From Vampirovibrionales bacterium (GTDB lineage: Bacteria > Cyanobacteriota > Vampirovibrionia > Vampirovibrionales > Vampirovibrionaceae), in contig JBDIVN010000007.1 in assembly GCA_039794365.1 (NCBI GenBank), positions 44,389-108,388 on the forward strand: 64,000 nt of DNA. Reading direction: 5' to 3'. Positions 12,721 to 29,419 of the stretch are shown piece by piece (position 1 is the stretch's first letter; every line of letters begins with the position of its first letter). The position numbers and the translations under genes are program-made. The notes beneath the pieces are model-generated. The model was not told where the DNA came from, did no database searches, and saw only the letters and a list, made by a program, of their open reading frames with translations.

Positions 12721-12736
12721 GACGGACCCAACGGTT

Positions 12737-13813: not shown

Positions 13814-15421
13814 ATGGCAATTCGGAAAAGTGACAGAGGCGCCACGATCTGGGAATACGCGCTGGGGGTTGGCCTGGTGGCCGGTGCGCTCATTGGCGTG
13901 GCCGCATTCATCCTCCCCAGCGCCCTGAACATCTCATTCGTCAACACGGTCAATGCCACCACGGATAACAACCAGGTCATTGCCCAGTCCTTCGGCACCC
14001 CCACCGACCCCTTCGCCGCCATTGCCGGCTTCCAGAACGAAAACGTCAAGACCATCGTAAGCCAGATGTCCATTGCATGCATCGATACGAGCCAGGTGTG
14101 CTTCCCCTCATTTTCCGAGAACGCCCTGAACGACGAGGACACCCTCGGCGGTCTGGGGGAAACTTCCGGCGGCCTGGGGCAGCAGCAATACCTGGATATG
14201 GCTACCAACTACATCATGACGGCCATCAAGGACATTCTAGGCAAGAAAAACGTCCCCGAATCCCTTAAGGAGAAGTTTCGTGAACTGGCGAACCTCTCCC
14301 AGGAGATGGCCTCAGCCCAGCAACAGCTGGCAGACGCCCTGCGCCGCGGAGACAGCGCACGGGCACGGCAACTGGTCCAGCGAATCAACGGGGGCAGCCA
14401 GGTCTACATCTCGGACAAATGCCTGCCGTCGGCCATTTGCATCGAAGCCGGCGACGGCCTCTTCTACAATATCATTCCCGCCAATGATCCCCTTTCCCTC
14501 ACCGGACAGATTGCCCTGGTCCGGCAGGAAATCGCGGCGGACGAAAATATCGGACAGATCCCCAGTGCCTCTCGCGCCCTGGATACCGTCTTCAGCGCCC
14601 TTGAGGATCGCTCCCGGCGGATTGCCGTCCTGATGGAGGGAGATCCGCCCATTGTAAAAAGATACAGCGAAGTGGACATCCAGGATTTTATCGCCACCCT
14701 GACCACCAACGTGTCCTATCTCAACAGCCTGGTTTCCAGCATGAACCAGGAGAAAAACGCCCGCACCGCCACGGAGGAACTGGCCAAGAGCCTGTACAAG
14801 AACGACAACTACATGGGCTACAGCAACGAGCAGGTGGATTTGACCGTCACCCACCTGATCGAGAAGATCCAGAAAACCCTGCTGGCCGATGAGGCCTTTG
14901 CCCGAAGCCTGATCCGCGGCACCCCGGACATAAAGGAAGCCACCCGGCTGGCCATGAGCGCTTTTGGTGAATTTTTTGCCGAAAACTCCGGGGAAAGCCG
15001 GGAAATCGCCACCAAACTGCGTGATGACGTCCTCAGTGACTCCGAAGCGGGAACCCGCCTCATACAGGCCGCCCTGGAAAACGCCGTTGCCGCACGGACC
15101 ATGGACAGACTGCTGGCCACCATCACCGATACCGCCGAGGACGGTGCCCGGAATCAGGATCTCTACAAATCGGTGGTGGGCATCCTCGCAAAAAATCCGG
15201 AGATCATCTCCGGCCTGCAGGAAATGGCCACCTCCAAACGGATCGATCCCTCCCGCGTGGAGGCCACCTCCCGGTTTCTGGCCGGACAGATCAGCGAAAG
15301 CGCCCGCGAAAGCGAGGCCACGCAGTTGCTGGAAAACAACGCCCGGCATATGCTGAAAGCGGCGGAAATCAGCTGCTCGGCAGGGCGCGGAGAGTTCAGC
15401 AGTGGAAAATGCCTGGGCTAG
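13814..15421 (+). CDS. large Flp/TadE-type prepilin-like protein with ~500-aa helical C-terminal domain (TadG-like minor pilin candidate)
   Basis: Start chosen at MAIRKSDRG/ATIWEYALGVGLVAGALIGVAAFI (AAGGA RBS 9 nt upstream). This is a class III Flp/Tad signal with the G/XXXXEY cleavage motif and a hydrophobic helix, followed by a long Ala/Leu/Glu/Arg-rich region with no vWA motif. Confidence 0.6.
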   Translation: MAIRKSDRGATIWEYALGVGLVAGALIGVAAFILPSALNISFVNTVNATTDNNQVIAQSFGTPTDPFAAIAGFQNENVKTIVSQMSIACIDTSQVCFPSFSENALNDEDTLGGLGETSGGLGQQQYLDMATNYIMTAIKDILGKKNVPESLKEKFRELANLSQEMASAQQQLADALRRGDSARARQLVQRINGGSQVYISDKCLPSAICIEAGDGLFYNIIPANDPLSLTGQIALVRQEIAADENIGQIPSASRALDTVFSALEDRSRRIAVLMEGDPPIVKRYSEVDIQDFIATLTTNVSYLNSLVSSMNQEKNARTATEELAKSLYKNDNYMGYSNEQVDLTVTHLIEKIQKTLLADEAFARSLIRGTPDIKEATRLAMSAFGEFFAENSGESREIATKLRDDVLSDSEAGTRLIQAALENAVAARTMDRLLATITDTAEDGARNQDLYKSVVGILAKNPEIISGLQEMATSKRIDPSRVEATSRFLAGQISESARESEATQLLENNARHMLKAAEISCSAGRGEFSSGKCLG

Positions 15422-15436
15422 CCAGTTCCGGCGAAG

Positions 15437-16123
15437 CTAGTTCAAACTTTCCGCAACCGCCCGCCAGAGCCTCAGAACCGGATGCCGGTTGCTCTCGGCC
15501 AGCGCTTCAATCTGGCGCTGGGTATAGGCGATCTCGTCCATCAACTCCGGAAATTTGCCGCTCTGTCCGTAAATCCCAACGATATCGCGGTTGTACTGCA
15601 GCTTTTCCTCCCTCGACGGCTTGAACCGCTGCCAGAAGCCCTCCCCCTGCTGGCGGTACTCCCGCAGCATGGTGCGCATGTTATGGAGCTTGTCGCTGGC
15701 CGAAATAAGCAGGGCCGTCTCCGGCGCCTCGTTCACCACCCGTTCCAGATAGGCCACCTTGCGCTCGTTGTAGGTTTTGGAGGGGTCATCCCCATAGTCC
15801 GTGCAGTAATCCACCAGCATGGCCACCACCGGGCCAAAGCGGGCCTCGATCCGATCCCGCATGCCCCTACCCCCCTGATCCTCGATGGCATCGTGGAGCA
15901 GGGCCGCGATCACGGCATCCTCCAGGGTAATCCGGACATCAGGCTGACCAGGGCGACGAAAGACTTCGAGCAGGTAGTCCGGGGCGGGCACAAAGCCGTT
16001 ACGCGCATCCTGAATGGGGGCAAATTCGAGCATGATGCTCATGACCCCGATGAGATGGGAGAAATAGGGAACGGATGACCCCTTGCGCAGTTGGGACTGG
16101 TGGATCGCCATGGCAAATTCCAT
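15437..16123 (-). CDS. HD-domain (p)ppGpp hydrolase-like protein (small alarmone hydrolase / SpoT-type HD)
   Basis: Motifs HQSQLRKGSSVPYFSHLIGV and AALLHDAIED match the RelA/SpoT-type HD hydrolase domain. Start placed at the internal MEFAMAIHQ. Confidence 0.65.
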   Translation of the reverse strand: MEFAMAIHQSQLRKGSSVPYFSHLIGVMSIMLEFAPIQDARNGFVPAPDYLLEVFRRPGQPDVRITLEDAVIAALLHDAIEDQGGRGMRDRIEARFGPVVAMLVDYCTDYGDDPSKTYNERKVAYLERVVNEAPETALLISASDKLHNMRTMLREYRQQGEGFWQRFKPSREEKLQYNRDIVGIYGQSGKFPELMDEIAYTQRQIEALAESNRHPVLRLWRAVAESLN

Positions 16124-16408
16124 GGCGTCCCCGATTTTCGTGCTGAAGAAACCGGGCCGTGTCCGTTCTGAAAACCGTGCCTCATCCTGTACCGGGGCCT
16201 GCCGGAACCGGACGGCAGCCGTCCTGCGGCAACTGGAGGCACCCGCCACAGGACGGCAGGAGGCATGGACCAGGGAGGATTGGACCGTCTTCATACGAGG
16301 AGTTGTAACACAAACACTTCAAAAGTGGATTCAGATTTGCTTACCCTGTAAAAAGCCGGTAACACGCCGGCAGCCGCATACCCTAAATACGGAACTTGTA
16401 ATACAATA

Positions 16409-17821
16409 ATGGGGAAAAAATTGCGGGGACTTGGGTCGGTGTCAGCGTTCAAAGCGGTAGTGGAATCTTGGCCGGGCCAGACGGGCGAACCTCTGGAGGC
16501 CCCGCTGCTGCCTTCCCTGTGCGATCTGCTGGTGGCCGCCTCCAAAGCCATTGACCTGCTGGAAGGGCGCAGCCTGCGCCACGGCATCCGGGTCGCGGTC
16601 ATTGCCGGAACCCTGGGGCGCCTGGCCCACTTGCCGGAGCGTGAGCAGACCGCCCTGGTCCTGGCCAGCCTGCTCCATGACGCGGGGCTGGTCCGGGTCG
16701 CGTCGGACGTGGCTATCCGCCTACCTCGCGGCCTGACCGAAAAGGAACTCTTCGGCGTTCACCCCCTGCTGAACCTGGGCCTCGACCCGAATGCCCACTG
16801 GCCGGACAACCTGCGTCTGCCGGAAACCGCCCTGCAGATCCTGAAGGGACACCCCCAGGCCACCGCCGGTTTTCTGGAACCGCTCCAGGTTTCCAGAGGC
16901 GTGGGGGACATCATCACCTCTGGCCATGAGCTGATGGACGGTTCCGGCTATCCGCTGGGCATTGCCGGCGATGCCATTCCTGTCACCTCAAGAATCCTGG
17001 CCCTCGCGGACACGGCGGAAACCCGGATGGATTTCGCGGGCGGACTCAATGCCCGCCGCGACGCACTGGAGCAGTTTCTCGGCCATGAAGCCCCCGGTCG
17101 GTTCGACCCGCAGCTGATCGAGCTTCTTCAGGCCGTCACGATCTCCGCGCCGGACGACACGTTTATGCGCCGCCTCTACACCCGGCAGGCGGAATCCATG
17201 CTGGACGAACTGCTGCCCCATCGCAGACAGCCCCTTGCCGGGGAATCGCTGCGAACGGTATGCCAGACGCTCGGCACCCTGTCCGACGGGCTGCTCCCCC
17301 TCTACACGAAGAATCATTCCTTCCAGACCGCCGATGCCGCCCTGGGCATGGCCCGCCACATCGGCATCCCGGACCACCAGACAGGCCAGTTGGCCATTGC
17401 GGGACTGGTCCATGACCTGGGCATGCTGTCGGTTCCCCTGAACATCCTCCTGCACCCCGAAGCCCTGGGCCGGGAACAGTGGTCGCGGATCTACGATCAT
17501 CCCCGGCACACGATGGATATCCTCAAGGGCGTTCCGGGTTTCGAGGCCATCGGCAACTGGAGCGGCGAGCATCATGAGCGTATGAACGGCAGCGGTTATC
17601 CCGGCGGTAAGAAGGGCATCGAGATCTCCGTGGCCGGAAGAATCCTGGGCATTGCCGACGCCTATTCGGCCCTGATCTCGCCACGCCCCTATCGGACCCA
17701 TGCCTACGAGCCGATGGATGCCCTGCCCGTGCTGGGCCAGGGACGATTCCGGCTCTTCGACAACCCGCTTATCAGTGTGCTTCGCAGCGTAGTGCTGGAA
17801 TCCCAGTACGTCGTCTCCTGA
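16409..17821 (+). CDS. tandem HD-GYP domain protein (putative c-di-GMP phosphodiesterase)
   Basis: Two HD..GYP modules: LLHDAGL...HELMDGSGYP and LVHDLGML...HHERMNGSGYPGG. No sensor or receiver domain is recognisable. Confidence 0.8.
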   Translation: MGKKLRGLGSVSAFKAVVESWPGQTGEPLEAPLLPSLCDLLVAASKAIDLLEGRSLRHGIRVAVIAGTLGRLAHLPEREQTALVLASLLHDAGLVRVASDVAIRLPRGLTEKELFGVHPLLNLGLDPNAHWPDNLRLPETALQILKGHPQATAGFLEPLQVSRGVGDIITSGHELMDGSGYPLGIAGDAIPVTSRILALADTAETRMDFAGGLNARRDALEQFLGHEAPGRFDPQLIELLQAVTISAPDDTFMRRLYTRQAESMLDELLPHRRQPLAGESLRTVCQTLGTLSDGLLPLYTKNHSFQTADAALGMARHIGIPDHQTGQLAIAGLVHDLGMLSVPLNILLHPEALGREQWSRIYDHPRHTMDILKGVPGFEAIGNWSGEHHERMNGSGYPGGKKGIEISVAGRILGIADAYSALISPRPYRTHAYEPMDALPVLGQGRFRLFDNPLISVLRSVVLESQYVVS

Positions 17822-17873
17822 AGCGTCTCCTGGGGGCCTGTATAATAAAGAAAAGGCGAAAAGGAGGCTTACC

Positions 17874-18620
17874 ATGCGCACAGCAAACCCGGCCCTGAGT
17901 GAAAAGGCGTTCCGCTCCCCGGCCCGGACCGGCGAAGGGACCATGACCGTCCAGGGTGCCGTCAACAAAACCGCCATCCTCCTGGCCCTCGCCTTTGCCA
18001 CCGCCATGATCAGCTGGAACATGGTGCTGGCCAACCCGGCGATCTTTCCGTTGCTGATGTGGGGCGGACTCATCGGCGGGTTCATCCTCGCCATGATCAC
18101 CGCCTTCAAACGGGACTGGGCGCCGGCCACCGCCCCGGCCTACGCCCTGGTGGAGGGCGTTTTTCTCGGCAGCATTTCCGTCGCGTTCGAACATTACATG
18201 GGCGATGGCATGGCCGGGATCGTCTTTCAGGCCGTTATTCTCACCTTTGGAACACTGGCTGCCCTACTTCTGGCTTATAGTAGCGGGATGATTAAGGTCA
18301 CCGAGAAGTTTCGGATGGGGGTTTTCGCCGCCACCGGCGCCATCCTGCTCGTCTATATCGTCAATTTCGTGATGAGCTTCTTCGGCATGAACGTGCCCTT
18401 CCTTCATGACACCGGTCCCATCGGGATTGGCATCAGCGTGGTCATTGTCATCGTCGCCGCCCTGAACCTGGTGCTGGACTTCGACTTTTTCGAGCAGGGG
18501 GCACGCCAGGGGGCACCCAAACATATGGAGTGGTACGCCGCCTTCGGACTCATGGTCACCCTGGTCTGGCTCTACCTGGAAATGCTGCGCCTGCTGTACA
18601 AGATTCGCAGCAATCGCTAG
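17874..18620 (+). CDS. Bax inhibitor-1/YccA family membrane protein
   Basis: Seven predicted hydrophobic helices, about 220-aa core and the family's charged C-terminus. Start may be the internal MTVQGAVNKTAILLAL (17943). Confidence 0.55.
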   Translation: MRTANPALSEKAFRSPARTGEGTMTVQGAVNKTAILLALAFATAMISWNMVLANPAIFPLLMWGGLIGGFILAMITAFKRDWAPATAPAYALVEGVFLGSISVAFEHYMGDGMAGIVFQAVILTFGTLAALLLAYSSGMIKVTEKFRMGVFAATGAILLVYIVNFVMSFFGMNVPFLHDTGPIGIGISVVIVIVAALNLVLDFDFFEQGARQGAPKHMEWYAAFGLMVTLVWLYLEMLRLLYKIRSNR

Positions 18621-20221
18621 CGCCCGGAGGAAACGGCGAAGCGGTAGTCCACCGGACCCGGTGGGCGATCCGTTGACTGGGGGCGCGGATTCTGCGGAAC
18701 GGCGCTTTCGGGGGTCCGGGTTTCCAGCGCCTTGATTTTCGCCTTCGCCTTTCTGACCCGTTCGCGGCTGGCGGCATCCTTGTCGTCGCGGGCCAGTTCG
18801 ATGAACCGGTTGAGGGAAGCCACGGCCCGCCGGGGTTCATTGAGATCCGCGTAGATCATCCCCAGGTTGAACTGGATGTTGGCATCCCCGCCCGCCAGCA
18901 GCTCAGCCGCCCGGTAGAGGGTGAGGGCCTCCTGCTGCCGGTTGTCCTCACTCAGCAAACCGGCGTAGTTGATAAGCACATCCGGTTTCAAAGCCCGCAG
19001 ATACGCTTCCGCGGCCCTGATATCATCACCTTCGCGGTGATAGGCATAGCCGAGCGCCTTAAAGGCAGCCAGGTCGTCGGGGTTGGCCAGGATCAGCCGA
19101 CGCAGCTCCACGGCTGCCGAGGCGGGGCGGTTGCGTTTCAGCTCCACAATGGCAAGGCGGTAGTGGGCCAGCAGATGATCCGGGTTCCCGGAAAGCACCG
19201 AAATATAGGTTTTCAATGCCTCGTCCGCCTCCCCCCGCGCTTCCTGGAGCAGTCCGCGGGCGTAGAGGAGTTCGGGATTCTCCGGAAACTCCCGCATTGC
19301 CTGGCGCAACAACTCATCGGTTTCAGGAAAGTTCCCCTCTGACAGGTTCAGCCGGATCAACTCCAGCCACGCGGGCAGGAAGCGCAGGTGCTCCTCGGTG
19401 ACTTTCTGCAGGGCCAGGGTGGCCCGCTGTGTTTCTCCCGAAGCCAGATGCACCAGCCCCAACAGATAACGGCCCACCGGATCATGAGGCTGGCTCCCCA
19501 GCCAAGTTTCCAGGGTCATGCGGGCACTGTCCAAGCGTCCGCCCCGGTAAGCATCCCAAGCCTGGAGGATCTCCGCCGAGAAACCGCTCGATTGACCCGC
19601 CTCCAGGGCATAGATGGAGAAATCCGGTGCCGGTGTCCGCAGCGGGCTAGCCACTTTTGTCACGCCGGGGAAGCCCGCGTCCGATGCCAATGTTTTCGCC
19701 GGGTTTTTCGTCGGATCTTCCAGGGTCACCACGGACAGGGGTTCCGGCTTTTTCACGACCGCCGGCTGTCCCCGGCTAGCACCCACCAATGCAATGCTGA
19801 CCCGGCTTCCCGTGTTGGCACGCACCTGGGGGCGCAGCCGCTTGCTCACCTCCAGAACGATCCGGATGGCATTCTGACCGTCCTTGTGCTGCATCAGGTT
19901 CACCGAGCGCACCTCCCGAATGGTATCAGCCAGGGTCCGGCTGAGCGCGGGGATATTCTCCTGCAAGGCATCGTCAAACCGGACGCCTTCCCCTTCGATG
20001 ACAATACGGAACGTGCCTTTATCCCCTTCTTCCACCCACAAGACCGGATCAAAGACGCCCCCGGAAACTTCCAGCAGAATATCCGTCGTCCCCGGCTCCA
20101 CGGTGATGCCCACAATACGGGCAACGGCAGCGTCAACCTTCTCTCCGGCAAGCACCATCACCGCCAAAAGAACCAGCAGCCCGCCGGTCAGCCCGTTCCG
20201 AAAGCGCCGGAGACTCCCCAT
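18617..20221 (-). CDS. AMIN-domain plus TPR-repeat periplasmic protein
   Basis: Signal peptide (LLVLLAVMVLAG), N-terminal AMIN-like beta domain (IRIVLEV...VSIALVG), Pro/Lys linker, then multiple TPR-like repeats. It starts 4 nt after the stop of the upstream giant gene (operon). Confidence 0.7.
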   Translation of the reverse strand: MGSLRRFRNGLTGGLLVLLAVMVLAGEKVDAAVARIVGITVEPGTTDILLEVSGGVFDPVLWVEEGDKGTFRIVIEGEGVRFDDALQENIPALSRTLADTIREVRSVNLMQHKDGQNAIRIVLEVSKRLRPQVRANTGSRVSIALVGASRGQPAVVKKPEPLSVVTLEDPTKNPAKTLASDAGFPGVTKVASPLRTPAPDFSIYALEAGQSSGFSAEILQAWDAYRGGRLDSARMTLETWLGSQPHDPVGRYLLGLVHLASGETQRATLALQKVTEEHLRFLPAWLELIRLNLSEGNFPETDELLRQAMREFPENPELLYARGLLQEARGEADEALKTYISVLSGNPDHLLAHYRLAIVELKRNRPASAAVELRRLILANPDDLAAFKALGYAYHREGDDIRAAEAYLRALKPDVLINYAGLLSEDNRQQEALTLYRAAELLAGGDANIQFNLGMIYADLNEPRRAVASLNRFIELARDDKDAASRERVRKAKAKIKALETRTPESAVPQNPRPQSTDRPPGPVDYRFAVSSGR

Positions 20222-20225
20222 GACG

Positions 20226-23200
20226 CTATACCCCGCTCTTGAGCTTCTCGACATACTTTCGCACCACATCCGCATTGCTGGCGTTCGGCGAGAGGCTCAG
20301 AAACCGCTCCAGGTGGACGATGGCGTTGGACTTGTCTCCCATCTTGGAGTATATAAGACCCAGGTTGTAGTGGGCCGGACCGAAGTTGGGCCGGATGGAA
20401 AGGGCCTGCTGATAGGCATTCCTGGCTTTCTGCAAATCGTTGGTGGCGTTGTACAGGTTGCCCAGGTTGAAGAGCAGATCGCTGTCATTGGGGTTCAGGG
20501 AGAGGGCTGTCAGGAAGATGCGCTCCGACTCGTCCATACGCCCCAGCTTCTTCAGGGTGGTGGCGTAGTTGTTCAGCACGCTGACGGGAATAGCCATCGC
20601 AAAGGCTTGTTGGGCCTCTTCAAGACGTCCGCTGAGGAGATAGGCCTTCCCCAGAAGGTTATAGCCCTCCAACTCGTAGGGGTTGTTGGTGAGGAAGAGT
20701 TCGAGAATCCGGGTGGCTTCCGCCGGATTGCCGGTCTTGAGCAACCCGTCGGCATACGCCGTCACGTAGCGGGTCACGTCGGACTCCAGCTTGTAGGCGT
20801 CGCGGTACAGCACCGTGGCTTCCACGATCTTGCCGTTGTCCTCCAGCTCTTTTCCGCGGATATAGAACTCTTCGGCACGAGGGTTGGCGCTGGTGGTAGG
20901 CTGGCGCTGCTGCAACCGGCGAAGGGCCTCTTCCAGGGAGGCATTTTTCGCCGCCGCCTGCCGAAGCTCCTCGTTGAGCCGGGCAATCTGGGCATCATTG
21001 CCGCTGGAGCCGCCGGCCTGCGCACGGGCCTGGGAGAGTTGCTGCTGGAGGGTATCGATCTGGGAGCGTGAATCCTGGTAACGGCGGTTGGCTTCCGCCA
21101 GTTCGGACTGCAGACTGGCCAGGCGGCCCTGTTCACCGTCCAGTTGCTGCCGCAGGGCAATGTATTCCGGCGACTGCGTCACGGGCGTATCGTTTGCCGG
21201 ACGGGATTCCAGACTCGCAATCCGTTGCTTCAGGGTGTCATTCTCCCGCAGGGCGGCCTGGTAATTGCGGTTGGCCTCCTCAAGCTGCTGCTCCAGCCGG
21301 GCCAGTTGGGACTGGTAGCCGGTCAGGCGGCTTTCCTGACTGGCCAGTTGCTGCTGCAAAGCGATGTACTCCGGCGACTCCTCCACCGGCGTCTGTTGGG
21401 TCGAATCCGCCTGAAGACCCGCCACCTGCTGCTTCAATGCCTCGTTGCGGGCCACCGCCACTTTATAATTCTCGGCGGTCTCCCGCAATTCCTCGCGCAG
21501 GCGGGAAAGCTGACCCTGCTGATCCTCGAGCTGCCGTTGCAGGGCGATGTACTCCGGCGACTCCTCCACCGGTATCTGTTGGGTCGAATCCGCCTGAAGA
21601 CCCGCCACCTGCTGCTTCAATGCCTCGTTGCGGGCCACCGCCACTTTATAATTCTCGGCGGTCTCCCGCAATTCCTCGCGCAGGCGGGAAAGCTGACCCT
21701 GCTGATCCTCGAGCTGCCGTTGCAGGGCGACGTATTGGGGCGACCCCTCCACCGGCGCCTGTTGGGTCGAATCCGCCTGAAGACCCGCCACCTGCTGCTT
21801 CAATGCCTCATTTTGGGCTGTCGCCATCTTATAATTGCGGGTGGTCGTCTGCAACTCATCCCGCAGGCGGGAGATTTCCTCCTGCTGGCTTGAAAGCTGC
21901 GTTTGCAGGGCAACGTATTCAGGCATCTGCTCCACCGGTGGCCGGTAGGTGCTTTCCGCCTGCAGGGCGGCCACCTGGGACTTCAACACCTGGTTCTGGC
22001 GCTGCACGTCTTCCAGATTACGGATACGGCCCTGCAAATCACCCAGCTGCTTTTCGTATTCAACCAGTCGTGACTTCTGGGCCTGGGTTTGTTCCTGTAA
22101 AGCAAGATACCGGGGAGACTGCTCCACCGGCGTTGGCTTGACCGAAGCCTGGGACTGCATGGCCTTGAGTTCCGCCTGCAAGGCCTCCTTTTCCCGGATC
22201 GCATTCTCATAGTCCCGGCTCAGGGCCAGATACTTGGGATTCTGCTCCAGCGGCGGCGGCGGGATAATCCCATGGGTTCGCGCCGCGCTGAGATCCGCCT
22301 TCAGCTGATCCGCCTCGTTGACCTTGGCGAGATACTTGCGGCTCAGTTCGCCCATCTGCTCCTGAATCTTCTGAGCTTCGGAGATCGCGCCCTGCCGGTC
22401 GGCACGGGCCTGTTGAAGATCACTTCGGACCGAGTCGAGCTGGTCCTGAAGCGCTTTCCTGTCCGTCTCCACGGCATTCAGGGCCGCCTGAACCTCATTC
22501 ACCTTTGCCTGCAGGGTCCGGACCTGATCGCTCTGGGTGGCGCGGGCCTGCTGAAGCTCCTGGCTGGCCTGTTGAAGTGCTTCGCGGGTCTGCCCGAGTT
22601 TTACCTCCATATCGGATTTCTCGGCGCTCAGAGTGTTTTTCTCTTTCTCCGCGGCATTCAGGGTCGACTGAAGCTCCTCCACTTTTGCCTGCAGGGTCCG
22701 AACCTGATCGCTCTGGGTGGCGCGGGCCTGCTGAAGTTCCTGGCTCGCCTGCTGCAACTTCGCCTGCAAATCGGATTTTTCAGTACTCAGGGCCGTCAGG
22801 GAATCCCGCAGGCTTTTGACCTTTTCCTCGGTCGGCCGCTCCGCCAGGGCCTCTTTTAACTGGCTGTTCTCGGAGCGGGCGGTCAGCAGGGCCTCCTCCA
22901 TAGCGTTTTTCGCCTTATGGAGAGCCTCCAGTTGCTCATTCATCGCCGCCAGCGCCCGTTTCAGCCGGGTCAGCTGCTCCTCTCCCTCCTGGCCGTCAGC
23001 CAGCTGCTTGCGCAGGGTATCCACAGACATCCGAAGGCCGGAGTTCTCGGCAGACAGGTTCTTGAGCGCATCCTCCCGCTGGGCCAGACGGGCTTCCGTC
23101 TCCTCCAGCTTCTGGCTTAGCGCCGCCACCTGTTGCCTGGCCGCTGCATCCATCCCCTGACGCACCTCGTTGAGCTGCTCGGTCAACGCGGCGATTTCCT

Positions 23201-25085
23201 TGTTCTGACGGTTGATGGTCTCTACAGACTGGGCCAGGGATTGACGGGCCTTTTCCACCTCGGCCTTCAGGGCATTCAGCCGATCCGGCGGTACGTGGGC
23301 CGACCGGAGCTGGCGATTTTCCGACTCCAGTTCGCCGTACTTGCGGTTAAGCACCGCCAGCGCCTTTTTCATATCCTCGAAGGAGAAGGGGGGCTTCTCG
23401 GCCAGCGCCCGTTCCAGCTGGCTGCGCAAATCCGCATTGGTCCGTTCCAGCAATTGGACCCGCTCCCGGTAGGATGCACTGTCCTGTTGCAGAGCCTGGT
23501 ACTGGGCATTGAGTTCATTATAGCGGCCGGCCAGCGCAGAAGACTGGTCTTGCTGACTGCGCAGGGACTGGACAGCCCGTTCTCCCTCAGCCGCCTGGCT
23601 GCGGGCCTGGGCAAGCTCCCGCTGGAGATCCTGGTTCCGACGCGTCAGGGCGGTCACTTCCTGTTTCAGTCCGTCCAGTTCGGACGGACTCGACGCCTGG
23701 GCACGAAGCTGGGCGAGCTGCTGCTCCAGCTGCTTGTAACGATGGCTCACCTCGGCCAGTTGCTCCTGCAGGGTCCTGACCTGCTGCTGACTGGCGCTGT
23801 AATTCGCGTGAAGGCGACTCAGGCGCTCCTGAAGTCCGGGGTCCTGCTGTTGCTGAGCCTGACGCTGGGCGCTGGCCAGTTCCGCCATCCGGGCCTGAAG
23901 ATCCTGGACCAGCTGCTGGCTGGAACTGTAGCGGTCGGCCAGTTCCTGGTAGCGGCGCTGCAATTCCTCGTACCGGCGCTTCAACTCATCGGACTGCCCA
24001 TCGGGCCGCCCGGAGGCATCCTGGCGAATCTGGCCGAGTTCCCGCTGGCTACTCTGGTAACGCGTCTCAACATCCGCCAGCTGGGATTTCAGGTCCCGGA
24101 TAACGGTTTCCTGCCGGGCGAGACGACTCGCCAGATCTCCGGACTGGCCTTGCTGTTCCATAAGCTGGCGGTAACGGGCCTTGAGTCGCTCATAATCATC
24201 CTTGAGGCCGGACACATCGCCCTGCTGGCTCATCAGGATCTGGTTTCGCTCGGCCAGCTGGGACACCTGAGCCTGAAGCTCCTGCACCCGGCGCTGGCTC
24301 TGCTGGTATTCGCTGCTCAAGGCCGAATAACGCGACTCCGCATCGGAGAGACGGGATCGAGCCTGGGTGGCCTGCTCGTAGCGGCTGTTGACGTCCTGCA
24401 ACTGAAGCTGCAGGCTGCGGACCTGCTCCCGCAAGCTCTCCACCTGAAGCAGCTTGTCCCCCACCTGCCCCAACCGGACACGCAGATCGTCAAGCTCGCG
24501 CTTCTGCTGTTCAATGGTATTAAGGGCACGCTGGTACTCCAGCGGACTCACGTTGCCAGGCTCCCGATGCGGCTCAGGCGTCAGGGGGCGCAGCTCGTTC
24601 CGGAGAACCGGCGGATCGGCAGCAACGGGACGGGCCGCACTGACCGGCTCCACCCGCAACTCAAGGGAACCCCCCGCCCCCTCCACCAGACGGGCATTAT
24701 AGCTGTCTCCGACCAGGTCGATGAGTATCCGGACAACAGGGCGTGCCCCGCCAAACTGGTTGATGGAGACGTTCTGGACGGCAGACCACTGGGACTGGAG
24801 CCTGGAGAGCAACTCCCCCTCGCGTGGCAGGGCCAGCCCCACACCGGCATTTTCGATATCAAGGATCAGGCGTTTGTTTCCGTTGACCGTCGTGGCGTTG
24901 AACGACGACCTCACTGGACCGGAACTGGACACGGTAAAGCTTTGACGCAGCGGATTGTACTGGATGCCCTCAACCACGCCCTCGGCGGACCAGGCCAGGG
25001 TGGGGGCAAACATGGTCTCAAACAGGAATATGGAACCCCCAACCAAAGTCAGGGCAACAGTATGGAACTGCTTCTTAACTCTCAT
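20226..25085 (-). CDS. giant (1619 aa) secreted AMIN-domain / repetitive coiled-coil / C-terminal TPR protein
   Basis: Signal peptide MRVKKQFHTVALTLVGGSIFLFETMFAPTLAWSA. AMIN-like domain (RLILDIEN...VVRILIDLVGDSY). About 1,200 aa of heptad-rich Gln/Leu/Glu/Arg/Ala sequence, including roughly 8 copies of a 60-aa repeat (PVE.SPEY[IV]ALQ.QL...LKQQVAGLQADSTQQ). C-terminal TPR repeats. No TM segment after the signal peptide. Confidence 0.8.
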   Translation of the reverse strand: MRVKKQFHTVALTLVGGSIFLFETMFAPTLAWSAEGVVEGIQYNPLRQSFTVSSSGPVRSSFNATTVNGNKRLILDIENAGVGLALPREGELLSRLQSQWSAVQNVSINQFGGARPVVRILIDLVGDSYNARLVEGAGGSLELRVEPVSAARPVAADPPVLRNELRPLTPEPHREPGNVSPLEYQRALNTIEQQKRELDDLRVRLGQVGDKLLQVESLREQVRSLQLQLQDVNSRYEQATQARSRLSDAESRYSALSSEYQQSQRRVQELQAQVSQLAERNQILMSQQGDVSGLKDDYERLKARYRQLMEQQGQSGDLASRLARQETVIRDLKSQLADVETRYQSSQRELGQIRQDASGRPDGQSDELKRRYEELQRRYQELADRYSSSQQLVQDLQARMAELASAQRQAQQQQDPGLQERLSRLHANYSASQQQVRTLQEQLAEVSHRYKQLEQQLAQLRAQASSPSELDGLKQEVTALTRRNQDLQRELAQARSQAAEGERAVQSLRSQQDQSSALAGRYNELNAQYQALQQDSASYRERVQLLERTNADLRSQLERALAEKPPFSFEDMKKALAVLNRKYGELESENRQLRSAHVPPDRLNALKAEVEKARQSLAQSVETINRQNKEIAALTEQLNEVRQGMDAAARQQVAALSQKLEETEARLAQREDALKNLSAENSGLRMSVDTLRKQLADGQEGEEQLTRLKRALAAMNEQLEALHKAKNAMEEALLTARSENSQLKEALAERPTEEKVKSLRDSLTALSTEKSDLQAKLQQASQELQQARATQSDQVRTLQAKVEELQSTLNAAEKEKNTLSAEKSDMEVKLGQTREALQQASQELQQARATQSDQVRTLQAKVNEVQAALNAVETDRKALQDQLDSVRSDLQQARADRQGAISEAQKIQEQMGELSRKYLAKVNEADQLKADLSAARTHGIIPPPPLEQNPKYLALSRDYENAIREKEALQAELKAMQSQASVKPTPVEQSPRYLALQEQTQAQKSRLVEYEKQLGDLQGRIRNLEDVQRQNQVLKSQVAALQAESTYRPPVEQMPEYVALQTQLSSQQEEISRLRDELQTTTRNYKMATAQNEALKQQVAGLQADSTQQAPVEGSPQYVALQRQLEDQQGQLSRLREELRETAENYKVAVARNEALKQQVAGLQADSTQQIPVEESPEYIALQRQLEDQQGQLSRLREELRETAENYKVAVARNEALKQQVAGLQADSTQQTPVEESPEYIALQQQLASQESRLTGYQSQLARLEQQLEEANRNYQAALRENDTLKQRIASLESRPANDTPVTQSPEYIALRQQLDGEQGRLASLQSELAEANRRYQDSRSQIDTLQQQLSQARAQAGGSSGNDAQIARLNEELRQAAAKNASLEEALRRLQQRQPTTSANPRAEEFYIRGKELEDNGKIVEATVLYRDAYKLESDVTRYVTAYADGLLKTGNPAEATRILELFLTNNPYELEGYNLLGKAYLLSGRLEEAQQAFAMAIPVSVLNNYATTLKKLGRMDESERIFLTALSLNPNDSDLLFNLGNLYNATNDLQKARNAYQQALSIRPNFGPAHYNLGLIYSKMGDKSNAIVHLERFLSLSPNASNADVVRKYVEKLKSGV
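21190..22270 (-). repeat. intragenic tandem repeat array, period ~180 nt (about 6 copies; two near-identical at ~21361-21720)
   Basis: Segments starting at about 21361 and 21541 are almost identical over 180 nt (ctccaccgg[c/t][g/a]tctgttgggtcgaatccgcctgaagacccgccacctgctgcttcaatgcctcgttgcgggccaccgccactttataattctcggcggtctcccgcaattcctcgcgcaggcgggaaagctgaccctgctgatcctcgagctgccgttgcagggc). Flanking copies are progressively diverged. They encode the 60-aa coiled-coil repeat. Confidence 0.7.
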
Positions 25086-25329
25086 TCGCTAGAAAAGACC
25101 CTTCCGGTCTGTACCCGATGAGCAGGGTGTCAACGCCTGTGTCCAAGATACTCTACAAGCAAAAGTATACCACGCCCTTCCCGTTTGGGGGTCAACCGAT
25201 CACCACGGATATTCCAAATTTTCATTAAGCGCCCATCCCCATAAACAACGGCAGCGTTTCAAAACCGGAAATAATCCCCGGATCTGCTGGGATACCGGGG
25301 ATGGAAGATTCCTGGATCGCCGTGAAAGG

Positions 25330-26448
25330 CTAGGCCAGTTTCAGGGCTGGCCCTGACGGCAGCGGGATCGTTTTCCCGGACAGGGCCTCTTCGGCCAGTC
25401 GCTTGAGATCCGGGTTGGGCTTGTTGAAGAAGTTGAACCAGCCTTTGCCCGCCGCATTTTTCAGAACCTTTTTCATTTCCTTGTCGTCCTGGCGGTTGAT
25501 CACCTGCCACGCCTGGATGGCGGCAGCACGGACGTCCGGGTTCTCGTTCTTGTCCTGGACCACCTGCTTGATCACATCCAGGCCGGGAAGATTCTTGGTG
25601 GGCACACTGGCATTCTGGGAGGCATTCAGCATACCCAGGGTCCAGAGGGCCGCCTGGCGGACGTAATTGGCATCATCCTTGGCCTGTCCCTGCAAATGGC
25701 TGGTGTCGGCCAGGGCCTCACGCTTCAGAAGATCGTAGGTTTGGGCGGTTCCATAACCCCGAACACCGATCTCCTCCATCGCATCCACCCGCTCCTGCAG
25801 GGTGGAGGGTTGGTCAATCAGAGCGTTGAGCTGCTCTACATCCGCCGTCTTCAGGCCGGGCTGCTGGGGTTGCTGCGGCGGCTGAGGCTGCTGCGGATAC
25901 TGATCCACGGGCGGCTGGGGCTGCTGTGGGTATTGATCCTGCGGGTACTGGGGATACTGGGCATACGGGTCAGGGTACTGTCCCGGATACTGCGGATATT
26001 GCCCAGGATACGGGTAGGCCCACGGATTGGGCTGAGCCTGGAACGGACTCGGATAAGGCTGTTGCTGTTGATAGAAGGGAATCTGCTGCTGGAAAGCGGT
26101 CGCGTTCATCTGGTTCGCCAGGTTCAAATAGGAATTTCTCGCCTGTTCAGCCAGATTCTTGGCATTCAGCGCCTCGGCATACGCATTCTGAAGCGCCTGC
26201 TGCGGGTTCATCGACGGGAACATGTTGTTGTAGTTCGCCGGATAGGCCGCAGGGGCGGAACTGGCCGGGGCGCCATAAACGGAAGCCGGCGGCGCGGCAG
26301 CGGGGCCGTAAGGCGATGCATAGGGCGACGGAGCCGCAGCAGGACCAATCTGGCCAGGGACGGCGCCGCCCGGAAAGTTCTTCGGCTCGATGATCTGGAT
26401 ATTCACCGCCGACGAAGTTTGAGGTAATTGAGGATAAGCTGTGACCAT
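25330..26448 (-). CDS. Pro/Gln/Tyr-rich low-complexity protein with C-terminal HEAT-like repeats
   Basis: N-terminal ~200 aa dominated by QYPQYPGQYP / QPQPPQQPQQ repeats and AAPxxYG motifs. C-terminal ~150 aa has HEAT/PBS-lyase-like helical repeats (YVRQAALWTLG, DVRAAAIQAW). First gene of the AMIN/TPR cluster. Confidence 0.55.
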   Translation of the reverse strand: MVTAYPQLPQTSSAVNIQIIEPKNFPGGAVPGQIGPAAAPSPYASPYGPAAAPPASVYGAPASSAPAAYPANYNNMFPSMNPQQALQNAYAEALNAKNLAEQARNSYLNLANQMNATAFQQQIPFYQQQQPYPSPFQAQPNPWAYPYPGQYPQYPGQYPDPYAQYPQYPQDQYPQQPQPPVDQYPQQPQPPQQPQQPGLKTADVEQLNALIDQPSTLQERVDAMEEIGVRGYGTAQTYDLLKREALADTSHLQGQAKDDANYVRQAALWTLGMLNASQNASVPTKNLPGLDVIKQVVQDKNENPDVRAAAIQAWQVINRQDDKEMKKVLKNAAGKGWFNFFNKPNPDLKRLAEEALSGKTIPLPSGPALKLA

Positions 26449-26767
26449 TTGCTGCCTTGACCCCTTCTGTTATAGAAAGCTGGATTGAAATATTTGCTCT
26501 GGAATTGAATCTACACGTTAAAGACCGATGAACCTGCCATGTTGCTATCCGCCCCTATGAATATTAATTTTTTGTTACACGCCGAAAGTGTTCCTTGTTT
26601 CGGGACGATGACGGGAAAGCCATGCCGACGGCTGGAGAGCACCACCTGAGACGTACCGAACATGCCTCATCCCTGGCAATACAGAATCACAAAGTCGAAT
26701 TTCAATCAATCCATGAACCTTCCCCGCCCTCTGACGCAGTAGCTCTTAAAAAAACCTTAAGGAACCT

Positions 26768-26794
26768 GTGACGCCTGAAAATGGCTGCTATAAT
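26768..26794 (+). promoter_or_regulatory. candidate sigma70-type promoter upstream of grpE
   Basis: Perfect TATAAT at 26789-26794 with an imperfect -35 (GTGACG/TGTGAC) 15-16 nt upstream, about 80 nt before the grpE ATG. No CIRCE inverted repeat is visible. Confidence 0.3.
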
Positions 26795-26871
26795 GAGGTT
26801 GCCCAAAGCTGCACCTGAACAGTGGCAAAGGCTCCCCCGCATGTCACGTCCGGGCCTTGAAAAGGATTTGA

Positions 26872-27498
26872 TTGCCGATGGCACAGGAACAACAACAGGA
26901 GACGGTACCGCAACCTTCAGAAACGAAGGGGCCGCACGAAACGCAAGAAGCGGAAACAGACGTCCATGAGGAGCTGCCGCCTTCGGGCAACAGCCTGCAG
27001 GAGCGGTTCGACGTGCTGCAGGATCAGCACATGCGCCTGGCGGCGGATTTCGAGAATTTCCGCAAGCGGGTCCTCCAGGAGCGGGAAGCCCTGCTGAAAT
27101 ACGGAGCCGAAAATACCATCCAGTCGCTTCTGCCCATCCTTGACAACCTGGAGCGGGCCTCATCCAGCCTGTCCGAAGGATCGGACCCGGCCATGCTCTA
27201 CAAGAGCTTCGAACTGCTGAGCAAACAGCTGATGGACACTCTGGCCTCCCAGGGGCTGAAGAAGATTGAAACCGTGGGCCAGCCTTTTGATCCTAATTTC
27301 CATGAGGCCACCGGCCAGATGGAAACCGATGAATATCCGGAGAACACGGTTGCCCTTGAGGTCCAGCCCGGCTTCCAGCTCCATGACCGGGTGCTTCGCC
27401 CGGCGCTCGTGATGGTGGCCTCCAGCGGCAGCGGCGAGGAAAACCCAGCCCCCTCCGAAGCCGACAGCCGGGAGAACCCGTTCGCCCAGTCCGAATAG
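26872..27498 (+). CDS. grpE: nucleotide exchange factor GrpE
   Basis: GrpE signature region LQERFDVLQDQHMRLAADFENFRKRVLQEREALLKYGAENTIQSLLPILDNLERA. Typical length with an acidic C-terminal tail. Confidence 0.9.
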   Translation: MPMAQEQQQETVPQPSETKGPHETQEAETDVHEELPPSGNSLQERFDVLQDQHMRLAADFENFRKRVLQEREALLKYGAENTIQSLLPILDNLERASSSLSEGSDPAMLYKSFELLSKQLMDTLASQGLKKIETVGQPFDPNFHEATGQMETDEYPENTVALEVQPGFQLHDRVLRPALVMVASSGSGEENPAPSEADSRENPFAQSE

Positions 27499-27543
27499 CA
27501 GACGCCCCCGAAAGGCCACAGAAAGCATAACAGGCAACTATCA

Positions 27544-28701
27544 TTGATGAGCACCGCCAAACGCGACTATTACGAAATCCTCGGCGTACAGCGCAACGCC
27601 ACCGCGGAGGAAATCAAGAAGGCTTTCCGCCGCAAGGCGAAGGAATATCACCCGGACGTGAACAAGAGTCCGGACGCCGAAGGACTGTTCAAGGAACTCG
27701 GCGAAGCCTTCGACGTGCTCAGCGACGACCAGAAACGACAGGTCTACGACACCTACGGCCATGATGGCCTGCGTTCCGGCGGCTACCAGACCAACTGGGA
27801 CTTCATGCAGGGCTTTCCGGATCTCAACGATCTGTTCGCCTCCTTCTTTGGCGGCGATTTCGGCTTTGCCGCCAGCCGGCGCCAAGGCCCCCACCAGGGG
27901 GACGACCTGCGTTTCGATATCGAACTCGACTTCATGGAAGCGGTTTTTGGCGCGAAGAAAGAGGTGGAAATCCAACGCCTGAACCGGTGTGCTCCTTGCA
28001 GCGGCACCGGCTCAACGCCGGGGTCAGGTGCCAGCATCTGCCAGACCTGTGGCGGCGGCGGCCAGATCCGTCAGACCACCCAGACCATCATCGGCCACTT
28101 CACCCAGATCACGGTCTGCCCGCGCTGCCAGGGGCAAGGACAGGTGATTACGGACCCTTGCAAGGACTGTCACGGCCAAGGCCGGCTCCAGGGCGCCAAA
28201 AAGCTCACCATCAACATTCCTGCCGGTGTGGACCGGGGCACCCGGCTCCGGGTGGCCGGCGAGGGCAACGCCGGGTATCTGGGAGGCCCCAACGGGGACC
28301 TCTACGTGGTGGTCAACGTCAAGCCCCATCCGGTATTTAACCGGGAAGCGTACAACCTGATGTCCGTCCAGAACGTCCCCTACTCCATGATGGTTCTGGG
28401 CGGCGAGGTGGAGGTGCCGGTTCTGGAAGGTACGTCCCGGATCAAAATCCCGGCAGGCACCCAGAACGGCCACGTTTTTACCCTGAAACAGCAGGGGGTT
28501 CCCCACCTGAACAATCCCAGCCGACGCGGCGATCATTTCATCCAGGTGCAGGTCAACATTCCCACCCGCCTCAGCGGCGAGGAAAAAAAGCTGCTGGAGC
28601 GTCTCAACGAGATCGATCGGGAAAAACAGCGCCAGGAAGACCGCCATGCGGCCTCGACGCTGTTCGACCGGTTCAAGGACGCCCTCTCCGGGAGTGCCTA
28701 A
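27544..28701 (+). CDS. dnaJ: molecular chaperone DnaJ
   Basis: J domain (DYYEILGV...HPD), G/F region and four CxxCxGxG zinc-finger repeats, with C-terminal domains. Confidence 0.95.
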
Positions 28702-28709
28702 GTTAGCTG

Positions 28710-29402: not shown

Positions 29403-29419
29403 CCGCTTCGGGAAATTTT

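What the first reader, a model, noticed from the sequence alone, without database searches (positions are those of the whole stretch)
21190..22270. Near-identical 180-nt tandem repeats inside the giant coiled-coil gene: a copy-number-variable length module
Two adjacent 180-nt units (~21361-21540 and ~21541-21720) differ at only a few positions. They are flanked by progressively diverged copies, about 8 repeats at protein level. Such arrays undergo slipped-strand and recombinational expansion or contraction. Each unit adds 60 aa, roughly 9 nm of coiled coil, so the length of this rod could be tuned between strains. The repeats are also a classic site of assembly collapse.
Basis: seen in the sequence. 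Interest (0 to 1): 0.5.

Follow-up and report, generated by a model that had tools for sequence, protein, structure and literature searches.

The report
Tandem 61-residue repeats in envelope protein
A very long, exported, rod-like bacterial protein contains seven head-to-tail copies of a 61-amino-acid "helix plus proline hinge" module, two of them almost identical; this is an ordinary product of recent DNA duplication, and whether it tunes the protein's length cannot be checked yet.

Summary
The repeats are real, but the period is 183 nt (61 aa), not 180. Window 21361-21547 and 21544-21730 match at 185 of 187 bases, including a 156-nt exact run. A third copy is 77% identical and shares a 51-nt exact tract. 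A profile finds seven units (aa 944-1360, window 21006-22256), not eight. A separate pair with a true 180-nt period lies at 22466-22574 / 22646-22754.

The gene (20226-25085, minus strand, 1619 aa) encodes a signal peptide, an AMIN domain, about 1,200 aa of heptad coiled coil and a C-terminal TPR domain. A short AMIN-TPR paralogue starts 4 nt after its stop codon.

Each unit is one helix of about 51 residues plus a hinge of about 10 residues. The hinge carries the best-conserved motif, P-V-E-x-S-P-x-Y-[ILV]-A-L. The array is therefore a segmented, hinged spacer rather than a continuous rod.

The mosaic of identity points to recent unequal crossing-over or gene conversion. An independent k=31 assembly of one sequencing run breaks 30 nt into each repeat.

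Copy-number polymorphism could not be tested. No orthologue, strain or repeat homologue was found, and even the ATP synthase beta subunit is a singleton at 90% identity.

Verdict: an ordinary coding tandem repeat in an orphan AMIN-coiled-coil-TPR protein. Interest is low to moderate.

The parts
20226..25085 (-). Giant gene, 1619 aa. Order of parts: signal peptide, AMIN domain, coiled coil of about 1,200 aa (with two internal repeat families), TPR domain.
   Evidence: ORF list and translation. Pfam hits to TPR at E = 1e-22 and to AMIN. Heptad periodicity at lag 7, z = 6.6. Both flanks are confirmed at 100% identity by independent Logan contigs.
24984..25085 (-). Predicted Sec signal peptide, aa 1-34: MRVKKQFH, then a hydrophobic stretch, then AWSA|E. 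There is no lipobox cysteine.
   Evidence: Read from the translation; inference only, no predictor was run.
24621..24986 (-). AMIN domain (aa 34-155), an all-beta peptidoglycan-targeting module.
   Evidence: Pfam PF11741 scores 22.9 bits against a cut-off of 20.5 when the N-terminus is scanned alone, and 19.7 bits in the whole-protein scan. AlphaFold2 model has pLDDT 78. The best PDB fold matches are AmiC 4BIN (E = 4.8e-4), M. xanthus PilQ 3JC8 (TM 0.62) and PilQ B2 4AQZ.
22263..24542 (-). N-terminal coiled-coil rod, aa 182-941. It has few prolines, with proline-free runs up to 190 aa.
   Evidence: Proline map. Autocorrelation peaks at lag 7 and its multiples.
22466..22754 (-). Second intragenic repeat pair, with a true 180-nt (60-aa) period. 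22466-22574 vs 22646-22754 are 90% identical (aa 778-813 / 838-873, LQQASQELQQARATQSDQVRTLQAKV).
   Evidence: the repeat finder family D7. Self-blastn at lag 180. A 35-nt exact run, 22522-22556 = 22702-22736. One Logan contig ends at 22707.
22134..22256 (-). Unit U1 (aa 944-984, 41 aa, truncated): PPLEQNPKYLALS...
   Evidence: Motif scan and profile domain, 29 bits.
21942..22133 (-). Unit U2 (aa 985-1048, 64 aa).
   Evidence: Profile domain, 84 bits.
21759..21941 (-). Unit U3 (aa 1049-1109, 61 aa). It is 77% nt identical to U4 and U5. Its last 51 nt (21759-21809) are identical to theirs, which marks a conversion tract.
21576..21758 (-). Unit U4 (aa 1110-1170, 61 aa). Codons 11-61 are identical to those of U5.
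   Evidence: Codon-by-codon comparison.
21393..21575 (-). Unit U5 (aa 1171-1231, 61 aa). The best register is 21361-21547 vs 21544-21730, 185/187 identical.
21189..21392 (-). Unit U6 (aa 1232-1299, 68 aa). Its first 10 codons are almost identical to those of U5 (differing only at codon 1); the rest has diverged and carries a 7-aa insertion.
21006..21188 (-). Unit U7 (aa 1300-1360, 61 aa), diverged.
   Evidence: Profile domain, 87 bits.
20229..20885 (-). C-terminal TPR domain (aa about 1401-1619).
   Evidence: Pfam TPR_1/2/8 at E = 1e-22. It is 31% identical to the TPR domain of the downstream paralogue.
18617..20221 (-). Downstream gene, probably co-transcribed (534 aa): signal peptide, AMIN domain, proline-rich linker, TPR domain. 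It is the 'short' paralogue of the giant protein. Its ATG lies 4 nt after the giant gene's TAG.
   Evidence: Sequence at the junction. AMIN at 21.1 bits against a cut-off of 20.5. TPR hits. The Logan gene call of 534 aa agrees.

Best explanation
The feature is an in-frame tandem array of seven 'helix plus hinge' modules (41-68 aa, modal 61 aa). It lies in the C-terminal third of the coiled-coil spacer of an exported AMIN-coiled-coil-TPR protein.

**Shown.**
- The array grew by successive tandem duplications, since outer units have diverged and central ones are young.
- It was reshaped very recently by unequal crossing-over or gene conversion between units. This left a 183-nt duplicate with 2 differences and a 51-nt conversion tract in the next unit.
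- Each module is predicted to be one helix of about 51 residues in a constant heptad register.
- Each helix is followed by about 10 non-helical residues that carry the conserved head motif P-V-E-x-S-P-x-Y-[ILV]-A-L. Five of the six invariant columns of the unit alignment lie in this motif.

**Inferred.**
- The protein is exported to the periplasm of a two-membrane (diderm) cell; a secretin gene lies in the same window.
- Its AMIN domain holds the N-terminus on peptidoglycan, and its TPR domain binds a partner.
- The coiled coil acts as a long tether. The repeat array forms the jointed, extensible end next to the TPR domain.
- Adding or losing a module would change the reach by up to about 8-11 nm and change the number of hinges.
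- Whether copy number actually varies, or is selected, is unknown.
For: - **Repeat anatomy and significance:**
- **Mosaic of identity:** the U4 and U5 bodies are 153/153 nt identical, their first 10 codons differ at 8 nt, and the last 51 nt of U3 are identical to those of U4 and U5. Between-unit dS ranges from 0.06 to above 1.2.
- **Hinged segmentation:** proline pairs recur every 61 aa, leaving proline-free runs of 55-57 aa, against runs of up to 190 aa in the N-terminal rod. The heptad phase is constant within a unit and shifts between units.
- **Structure model:** AlphaFold2 of U3-U6 gives four helices of 51, 51, 51 and 56 residues. They are separated by low-confidence linkers of about 10 residues at the motif.
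- **Motif conservation:** the invariant columns are P2, P7, Y9, A11, L12 and L47.
- **Constraint:** dN/dS between units is 0.4-0.6.
- **Domain ends:** AMIN is supported; TPR.
- **Short paralogue:** an AMIN-TPR gene starts 4 nt downstream.
- **Diderm envelope:** secretin, CpaB, CpaF and TadE genes lie in the window.
- **Known architectures:** AMIN+TPR and AMIN+TolA-like coiled-coil combinations are described in PMC2572700.
Against: - No orthologue or second strain exists in the collections searched. Neither polymorphism nor conservation of the array is shown.
- Location, oligomeric state and partners are inferred from domains only.
- About 1,200 helical residues would span roughly 180 nm if straight. 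That is far more than a typical periplasm is wide, so a simple perpendicular 'ruler' is unlikely.
- The AlphaFold2 model has pTM 0.45, so the relative orientation of the helices is undetermined.
- The strong conservation of the hinge motif is more than a passive hinge would need.
- The number of near-identical copies in the deposited contig is only the minimal path through the repeat if the assembly was short-read.
Confidence: 0.6

Rival explanations
1. The modules are multivalent docking sites. The conserved head motif P-V-E-x-S-P-x-Y-[ILV]-A-L, displayed seven times between helical spacers, would be a short linear ligand. Its receptor would be a TPR domain, either the protein's own or that of the adjacent AMIN-TPR paralogue. 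Copy number would then set valency, and the proteins would build a peptidoglycan-anchored meshwork.
For: Five of the six invariant columns lie in the first 12 residues of the unit, while the helical body diverges freely. Two TPR domains are encoded in the same apparent operon. TPR domains commonly bind short extended peptides (general knowledge). Motif-like strings precede both TPR domains; this is a weak observation.
Against: S-P-E-x and N-P-x-Y are ordinary helix N-capping signals. That could explain the conservation without any binding role. No interaction was modelled or tested. The exhaustive profile search found no other protein carrying the motif.
Confidence: 0.12
2. The helices fold back on each other. 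Consecutive 51-residue helices joined by 10-residue loops would form an antiparallel bundle or zig-zag, spectrin-like. Adding a unit would then thicken or re-phase the structure rather than lengthen a rod.
For: The linkers are short and contain proline, which is typical of helix-turn-helix reversals. AlphaFold2 predicts discrete helices with undefined mutual orientation, pTM 0.45.
Against: Each helix has one continuous heptad register with Asn at core positions, as in parallel in-register dimers (the link to parallel dimers is inference). The fold search of the model gave no significant bundle match; all hits had E > 0.1. The unit lengths vary (41-68 aa), which fits poorly with a regular bundle.
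Confidence: 0.18
3. The array has no length-tuning role. It would be a neutral by-product of recombination in low-complexity coiled-coil DNA. Alternatively, the copy number in the record is an assembly artefact, either collapsed or spuriously duplicated.
For: Coiled-coil genes tolerate in-frame duplications (general knowledge). dN/dS of 0.4-0.6 indicates only moderate constraint. The 156-nt exact run exceeds common short-read k-mers, and a k=31 assembly breaks exactly there.
Against: The diverged units U1, U2, U6 and U7 show that the array is old and retained. The variant first 10 codons of U4, U5 and U6 require at least two copies of the identical body in any assembly path. The head motif is conserved across all seven units.
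Confidence: 0.1

Closest known systems
Intragenic tandem repeats of fibrillar coiled-coil surface proteins, e.g. streptococcal M proteins, where size variants are said to arise by homologous recombination between repeats (Hollingshead, Fischetti & Scott 1987; recalled from memory, not read here)
   Same: In-frame head-to-tail repeats inside an alpha-helical coiled-coil envelope protein. The central copies are near-identical and the outer ones diverged. There is a clear signature of unequal crossing-over or gene conversion.
   Different: There is no LPXTG wall anchor and no sequence similarity. The protein is from a diderm and has AMIN and TPR end domains. Its units are separated by proline hinges. 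Size variation has not been shown here.
AMIN-TPR and AMIN-TolA-like coiled-coil architectures catalogued by de Souza et al. 2008 (PMC2572700)
   Same: An N-terminal AMIN domain after a signal peptide, combined with C-terminal TPR repeats. The downstream 534-aa paralogue has the AMIN-plus-TPR combination. AMIN fused to a long charged helical region is also described there.
   Different: The giant protein combines both features, with about 1,200 aa of coiled coil inserted between AMIN and TPR. It also carries a lineage-specific 61-aa repeat array. No sequence relative was retrievable.
FimV / HubP polar hub proteins: a peptidoglycan-binding LysM domain, a long repetitive acidic region and C-terminal TPR-like motifs. 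HubP is said to carry about ten 46-aa repeats (Yamaichi et al. 2012; recalled from memory).
   Same: The same logic: a peptidoglycan-binding module, a long repetitive spacer and a TPR-type interaction module.
   Different: The domain here is AMIN, not LysM. There is no transmembrane segment after the signal peptide, so the spacer is predicted to be periplasmic rather than cytoplasmic. No FimV models were hit.
Periplasmic coiled-coil spacers that set envelope dimensions, e.g. Braun's lipoprotein Lpp and OmpM/SlpA stalks (Asmar 2017 and Cohen 2017; recalled from memory)
   Same: A helical coiled coil in the periplasm attached to peptidoglycan at one end. Its length could in principle matter mechanically.
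   Different: Those spacers are 50-100 residues long and span the periplasm perpendicularly. This protein is more than ten times longer, is hinged, and has no outer-membrane anchor.

Membership tests
Coding tandem-repeat array (in-frame minisatellite) | Head-to-tail copies with a constant period that is a multiple of 3 | tested here: met
   The period is 183 nt. The units are 123, 192, 183, 183, 183, 204 and 183 nt long.
Coding tandem-repeat array (in-frame minisatellite) | Signature of recent recombination or homogenisation between units | tested here: met
   185/187 identity between the youngest copies, a 156-nt exact run, and a 51-nt exact tract inside a 77%-identical unit.
Coding tandem-repeat array (in-frame minisatellite) | Copy-number polymorphism between strains or orthologues | not testable with these tools
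   No relative was found. All ten window proteins looked up are singleton or near-singleton 90% clusters, seen in one NCBI contig and one Logan run. The searches found no orthologue.
AMIN domain (Pfam PF11741) | Score at or above the Pfam gathering threshold (20.5 bits) | tested here: inconclusive
   22.9 bits when aa 1-185 are scanned alone, but 19.7 bits in the whole-protein scan.
AMIN domain (Pfam PF11741) | AMIN beta-sandwich fold | tested here: met
   AlphaFold2 model with pLDDT 78. The top PDB matches are AmiC 4BIN (E = 4.8e-4, probability 1.00), PilQ 3JC8 (TM 0.62) and PilQ B2 4AQZ.
AMIN domain (Pfam PF11741) | Binding to (septal) peptidoglycan | not testable with these tools
   This needs biochemistry or localisation experiments.
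TPR repeat proteins | Several 34-residue TPR motifs above the Pfam thresholds | tested here: met
   TPR_8, TPR_1 and TPR_2 at 77-79 bits against cut-offs of 26-28, with E = 1e-22.
Coiled coil | Heptad periodicity and long uninterrupted helices | tested here: met
   Lag-7 autocorrelation at z = 6.6, with multiples of 7 also enriched. A/d-position occupancy of 0.75-1.0 within units. AlphaFold2 helices of 51-56 residues. The oligomeric state was not tested.
FimV / HubP family | N-terminal LysM domain, a transmembrane segment and the FimV C-terminal motif | tested here: not met
   No LysM or FimV model appears among the Pfam or NCBIfam hits. The only hydrophobic segment is the signal peptide.
Streptococcal M / M-like proteins | LPXTG sorting signal and M-protein repeat families | tested here: not met
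   There is no LPXTG in the translation and no M-protein Pfam hit. A secretin gene in the window indicates a diderm host.

The most novel reading that the evidence does not exclude
The seven conserved P-V-E-x-S-P-x-Y-[ILV]-A-L heads may be docking sites rather than mere hinges. Their receptors would be the TPR domains of the giant protein and of its co-transcribed short AMIN-TPR paralogue. The pair would then polymerise into a peptidoglycan-anchored periplasmic lattice (a 'periskeleton'). Repeat copy number would set the valency and mesh size of that lattice, in a deeply branching, almost unsampled diderm lineage.
Probability: 0.07. Interest if true: 0.6.

Novelty: new member of a known kind. 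Interest (0 to 1): 0.25.

Why it matters
If the array really varies in copy number, it would be a natural experiment on how the reach or valency of a peptidoglycan-anchored periplasmic tether is tuned. The protein is also an unusually long AMIN-coiled-coil-TPR combination from a lineage with no sequenced relatives.

As it stands, the practical value is narrower. The report corrects the anatomy of the repeat: a 183-nt period, seven units and a hinged architecture. It also flags two places in the gene (21392-21730 and 22522-22736) where short-read assemblies break. At the first of these, the deposited copy number is only a lower bound.

Tried and rejected
- **Word-indexed homologue searches.** Three searches were run: the whole protein, the repeat-unit alignment and the N-terminal 185 aa. 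They returned only the protein itself plus one TPR hit, or nothing. Searches did not even recover the source protein, so they are uninformative rather than negative. A local hmmsearch shows the profile scores the source protein at 496 bits.
- **Exhaustive profile search.** The search covered 1.84 billion representative proteins. It gave 0 hits at E<1e-10. The 22 weak hits are generic coiled-coil repeat proteins that match only the helical body. The source protein itself was not returned, which remains unexplained.
- **Genome-contig scan.** It found only unrelated TPR proteins. Two of them were inspected and are plain TPR proteins without AMIN or coiled coil.
- **Metagenome motif scan.** It gave two hits. 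The one inspected (L006) falls in a non-coding frame of a high-GC contig and is spurious; the other was not examined.
- **tblastn against plasmids.** It returned TPR hits only.
- **PDB sequence search with the N-terminus.** It found nothing; the fold search was needed instead.
- **Fold search of the four-unit model.** It gave no significant match.
- **Organism identification.** This failed. Rfam found no RNA gene in the window. The ATP synthase beta subunit was equally close to Firmicutes and chloroplast sequences in PDB. No paper mentions the run accession.
- **Rejected readings.** The array is not an M-protein or FimV/HubP family member, because defining features are absent. It is not a frame-shifting phase-variation switch, because every unit length is a multiple of 3. 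It is not a chance similarity.
Full report
**1. The observation**

Tandem Repeats Finder reports a single strong array in the 15-30 kb region. It lies at 21361-21872/21938, with period 183 nt, 2.8-3.2 copies, 87-91% matches and no indels. The repeat finder gives 21346-21528 vs 21529-21711 at 96% and a third copy at 77%. Weaker copies follow at spacings of 204, 183, 183, 183 and 192 nt.

A lag-183 comparison shows that 21361-21547 and 21544-21730 differ at two adjacent positions only, so 185 of 187 bases match. The exact run is 156 nt (21392-21547 = 21575-21730). A further 51-nt exact run links 21576-21626 to 21759-21809.

The period, however, is 183 nt (61 codons), not 180.

A pair with a genuine 180-nt period does exist in the same gene, about 0.9 kb away. 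It lies at 22466-22574 vs 22646-22754 and is 90% identical. This may be the source of the '180'.

At protein level, the motif P-x-Y-[ILV]-A-L occurs seven times. A profile built from the units finds exactly seven domains, aa 944-1360, scoring 29-102 bits. Nothing else in the protein scores above 5.4 bits. The count is therefore seven units of 41, 64, 61, 61, 61, 68 and 61 aa, spanning window 21006-22256, rather than 'about 8'. Protein autocorrelation peaks at lag 61 (z = 23) in the array and at lag 60 (z = 10) in the second pair.

**2. The gene**

The repeats lie in a 1619-aa ORF on the minus strand, 20226-25085.

The N-terminus reads as a Sec signal peptide: MRVKKQFH, a hydrophobic stretch, then AWSA|E. 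This is inference from the sequence.

Residues 34-155 form an AMIN domain.
- Pfam PF11741 scores 22.9 bits against a cut-off of 20.5 when the N-terminus is scanned alone, and 19.7 bits in the whole-protein scan.
- A single-sequence AlphaFold2 model has pLDDT 78 and is all-beta.
- Its best PDB matches are E. coli AmiC 4BIN (E = 4.8e-4), the M. xanthus PilQ model 3JC8 (TM 0.62) and the N. meningitidis PilQ B2 domain 4AQZ.

The C-terminal 220 aa or so are TPR repeats (E = 1e-22).

Between the two end domains lie about 1,200 residues with heptad periodicity (lag 7, z = 6.6). This stretch gives only generic coiled-coil hits to SMC, Rad50, intermediate filaments and tropomyosin, all far below family cut-offs.

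**3. Context**

- The next gene downstream starts at ATG 20221, 4 nt after the giant gene's TAG.
- It encodes a 534-aa protein with a signal peptide, an AMIN domain (21.1 bits against 20.5) and TPR repeats. Its TPR domain is 31% identical to the giant's. The giant protein thus looks like this short AMIN-TPR protein with a very long helical spacer inserted.
- Upstream lies a HEAT-repeat protein with a Q/P/Y-rich low-complexity region.
- A Tad/Flp pilus cluster, including a secretin, lies at 4.5-15.4 kb. The host therefore has an outer membrane.
- de Souza et al. 2008 list AMIN+TPR architectures and AMIN fused to TolA-like coiled coils. They propose that AMIN targets periplasmic proteins to particular wall regions (PMC2572700).

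**4. Anatomy of a unit**

In the N-terminal rod (aa 182-941), prolines are rare and proline-free runs reach 190 aa. From aa 942 onward a pair of prolines recurs every 61 aa, leaving proline-free runs of 55-57 aa.

Within a unit the heptad phase is constant. Between units it shifts by +2 in each 61-aa step (61 = 63 - 2).

AlphaFold2 of U3-U6 has mean pLDDT 84 and predicts four single helices of 51, 51, 51 and 56 residues. They are separated by low-confidence, non-helical linkers of about 10 residues that coincide with ...S-T-Q-Q-x-P-V-E-x-S-P... The pTM of 0.45 means the relative orientation of the helices is undefined. A fold search of the model found nothing significant.

The unit alignment has six invariant columns: P2, P7, Y9, A11, L12 and L47. 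Five of them lie in the head motif P-V-E-x-S-P-x-Y-[ILV]-A-L, while the helical body diverges freely.

The array is therefore a chain of seven helical segments joined by conserved proline hinges, not a continuous rod. By standard helix geometry, one unit is about 7.6 nm of helix plus a linker of up to about 3.5 nm (inference).

**5. How the array arose**

- U4 and U5 are identical over codons 11-61 (153 nt) and differ at 8 nt in codons 1-10.
- The first 10 codons of U5 and U6 differ only at codon 1.
- U3 is 77% identical to U4 and U5 overall, yet its last 51 nt are identical to theirs. The probability of that by chance is about 2e-6.
- Between-unit dS rises from 0.06 (U4/U5) to 0.47 (U3/U4) and above 1.2 (U7 against the others). 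dN/dS is 0.4-0.6.

This is the expected picture for old tandem duplications overlain by a very recent unequal crossover, whose breakpoints fall around codon 10. A gene-conversion tract accounts for the U3 identity.

**6. Assembly**

Looking up neighbouring proteins recovered two contigs of a Logan (k = 31) assembly of run SRR28812184. Both match the window at 100% identity: 14015-21421 and 22707-30125.

The only stretches of the gene that hold repeated 30-mers are 21392-21547 / 21575-21730 / 21759-21809 and 22522-22556 / 22702-22736. The two contigs end 30 nt into these runs, as a de Bruijn graph must.

This confirms independently that both flanks of the gene are correct and that the repeats are assembly breakpoints. 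It does not confirm the middle of the gene or the copy number.

The variant first 10 codons of U4, U5 and U6 force at least two copies of the identical body. Extra U5-type copies could not be excluded without read depth or long reads (inference).

**7. Relatives**

None were found.
- The whole-protein word search returned only the protein itself.
- The two sub-query word searches did not even return the source protein and are uninformative.
- The exhaustive profile search of 1.84 billion representatives gave no hit at E<1e-10. Its 22 weak hits are generic coiled-coil repeat proteins that match only the helical body.
- Genome, metagenome and plasmid scans gave only unrelated TPR proteins or hits judged spurious.
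- All ten window proteins looked up, including ATP synthase beta and DnaJ, are singleton or near-singleton clusters at 90% identity. They are seen only in one 169-kb NCBI contig and that one Logan run.

The organism therefore belongs to a very poorly sampled lineage. The organism's identity could not be established.

**8. Interpretation**

*Best supported (confidence 0.6).* The feature is a lineage-specific, in-frame tandem array of helix-plus-hinge modules. It forms the jointed, TPR-proximal part of a long periplasmic tether whose N-terminus is held on peptidoglycan by AMIN. The repeat structure and its recombinational history are shown. The location, tether function and length effect are inferred.

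*Rivals.*
- The conserved heads are multivalent docking motifs for the two TPR domains (0.12).
- The helices fold back into a bundle, so that copy number does not change length (0.18).
- The array is neutral or mis-counted by assembly (0.10).

A straight rod of about 180 nm cannot stand across a normal periplasm, which argues against a simple perpendicular ruler (inference).

**9. Comparison and novelty**

Tandem, recombining, in-frame repeats in coiled-coil envelope proteins are well known; M proteins are one example (recalled from memory). AMIN+TPR and AMIN+coiled-coil architectures were catalogued in 2008. The logic of FimV/HubP (wall-binding domain, repetitive spacer, TPR) is similar, but the defining features of that family are absent here.

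This is a new member of a known kind: an orphan protein with an ordinary type of repeat. Interest is low to moderate (0.25). It would rise only if copy-number variation, or a docking role for the conserved motif, were demonstrated.

Noticed in passing
window 22466-22574 and 22646-22754 (minus-strand gene, aa 778-813 / 838-873): There is a second, independent intragenic repeat pair with a true 180-nt (60-aa) period, 90% identical and with a 35-nt exact core. A k=31 contig also ends here, at 22707.
   Followed up: yes
window 18617-20221 (-): The downstream gene starts 4 nt after the giant gene's stop codon. It encodes a 534-aa protein with a signal peptide, an AMIN domain and a TPR domain, i.e. 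a short paralogue of the giant protein without the coiled coil. The two are probably co-transcribed.
   Followed up: partly
window 14015-21421 and 22707-30125 (loci L008/L009, L010): Two contigs from the Logan assembly of run SRR28812184 are 100% identical to the window. They stop inside the giant gene, 30 nt into its two repeat families. This is the only other public occurrence of the locus that was found.
   Followed up: yes
whole window (e.g. atpD 32185-33621, dnaJ 27547-28701): Ten proteins, including ATP synthase beta and DnaJ, are singleton or near-singleton clusters at 90% identity among about 15 billion proteins. Many large ORFs have no Pfam or NCBIfam hit (e.g. 30236-31963, 54032-56167, 13763-15421). 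The source is a very poorly sampled lineage, and the organism was not identified.
   Followed up: partly
window 4510-15421: A Tad/Flp pilus cluster lies about 5 kb from the giant gene. It includes the CpaF ATPase (4510-6036), the secretin (7305-9308), CpaB/RcpC (9500-10552) and a TadE-like protein (10698-11342). A functional link to the AMIN-TPR pair is possible but was not examined.
   Followed up: no
window 25330-26448 (-), tandem repeats at 25859-26002: The upstream gene encodes a HEAT-repeat protein. Its N-terminal half is a Q/P/Y-rich low-complexity region (QYPQ-type) encoded by short 9/18/33-nt tandem repeats. This is another potentially length-variable segment.
   Followed up: no
giant protein aa ~1401-1412 (window ~20850-20885) and partner protein 'TPAPDFSIYALEAG' (within window 18617-20221): The strings just before both TPR domains (NPRAEEFYIRG and TPAPDFSIYALEAG) loosely resemble the repeat head TPVEESPEYIALQ. 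This could be a shared helix-start signal or a coincidence.
   Followed up: no
window 49371-50828 (+): This ORF is dnaA (TIGR00362, 519 bits), so the window probably lies close to the chromosomal replication origin.
   Followed up: no
search tools: The word-indexed searches with sub-sequences, and the exhaustive representative search, did not return the source protein itself. A local hmmsearch scores it at 496 bits with the same profile. Negative results from those calls should be read with that caveat.
   Followed up: partly
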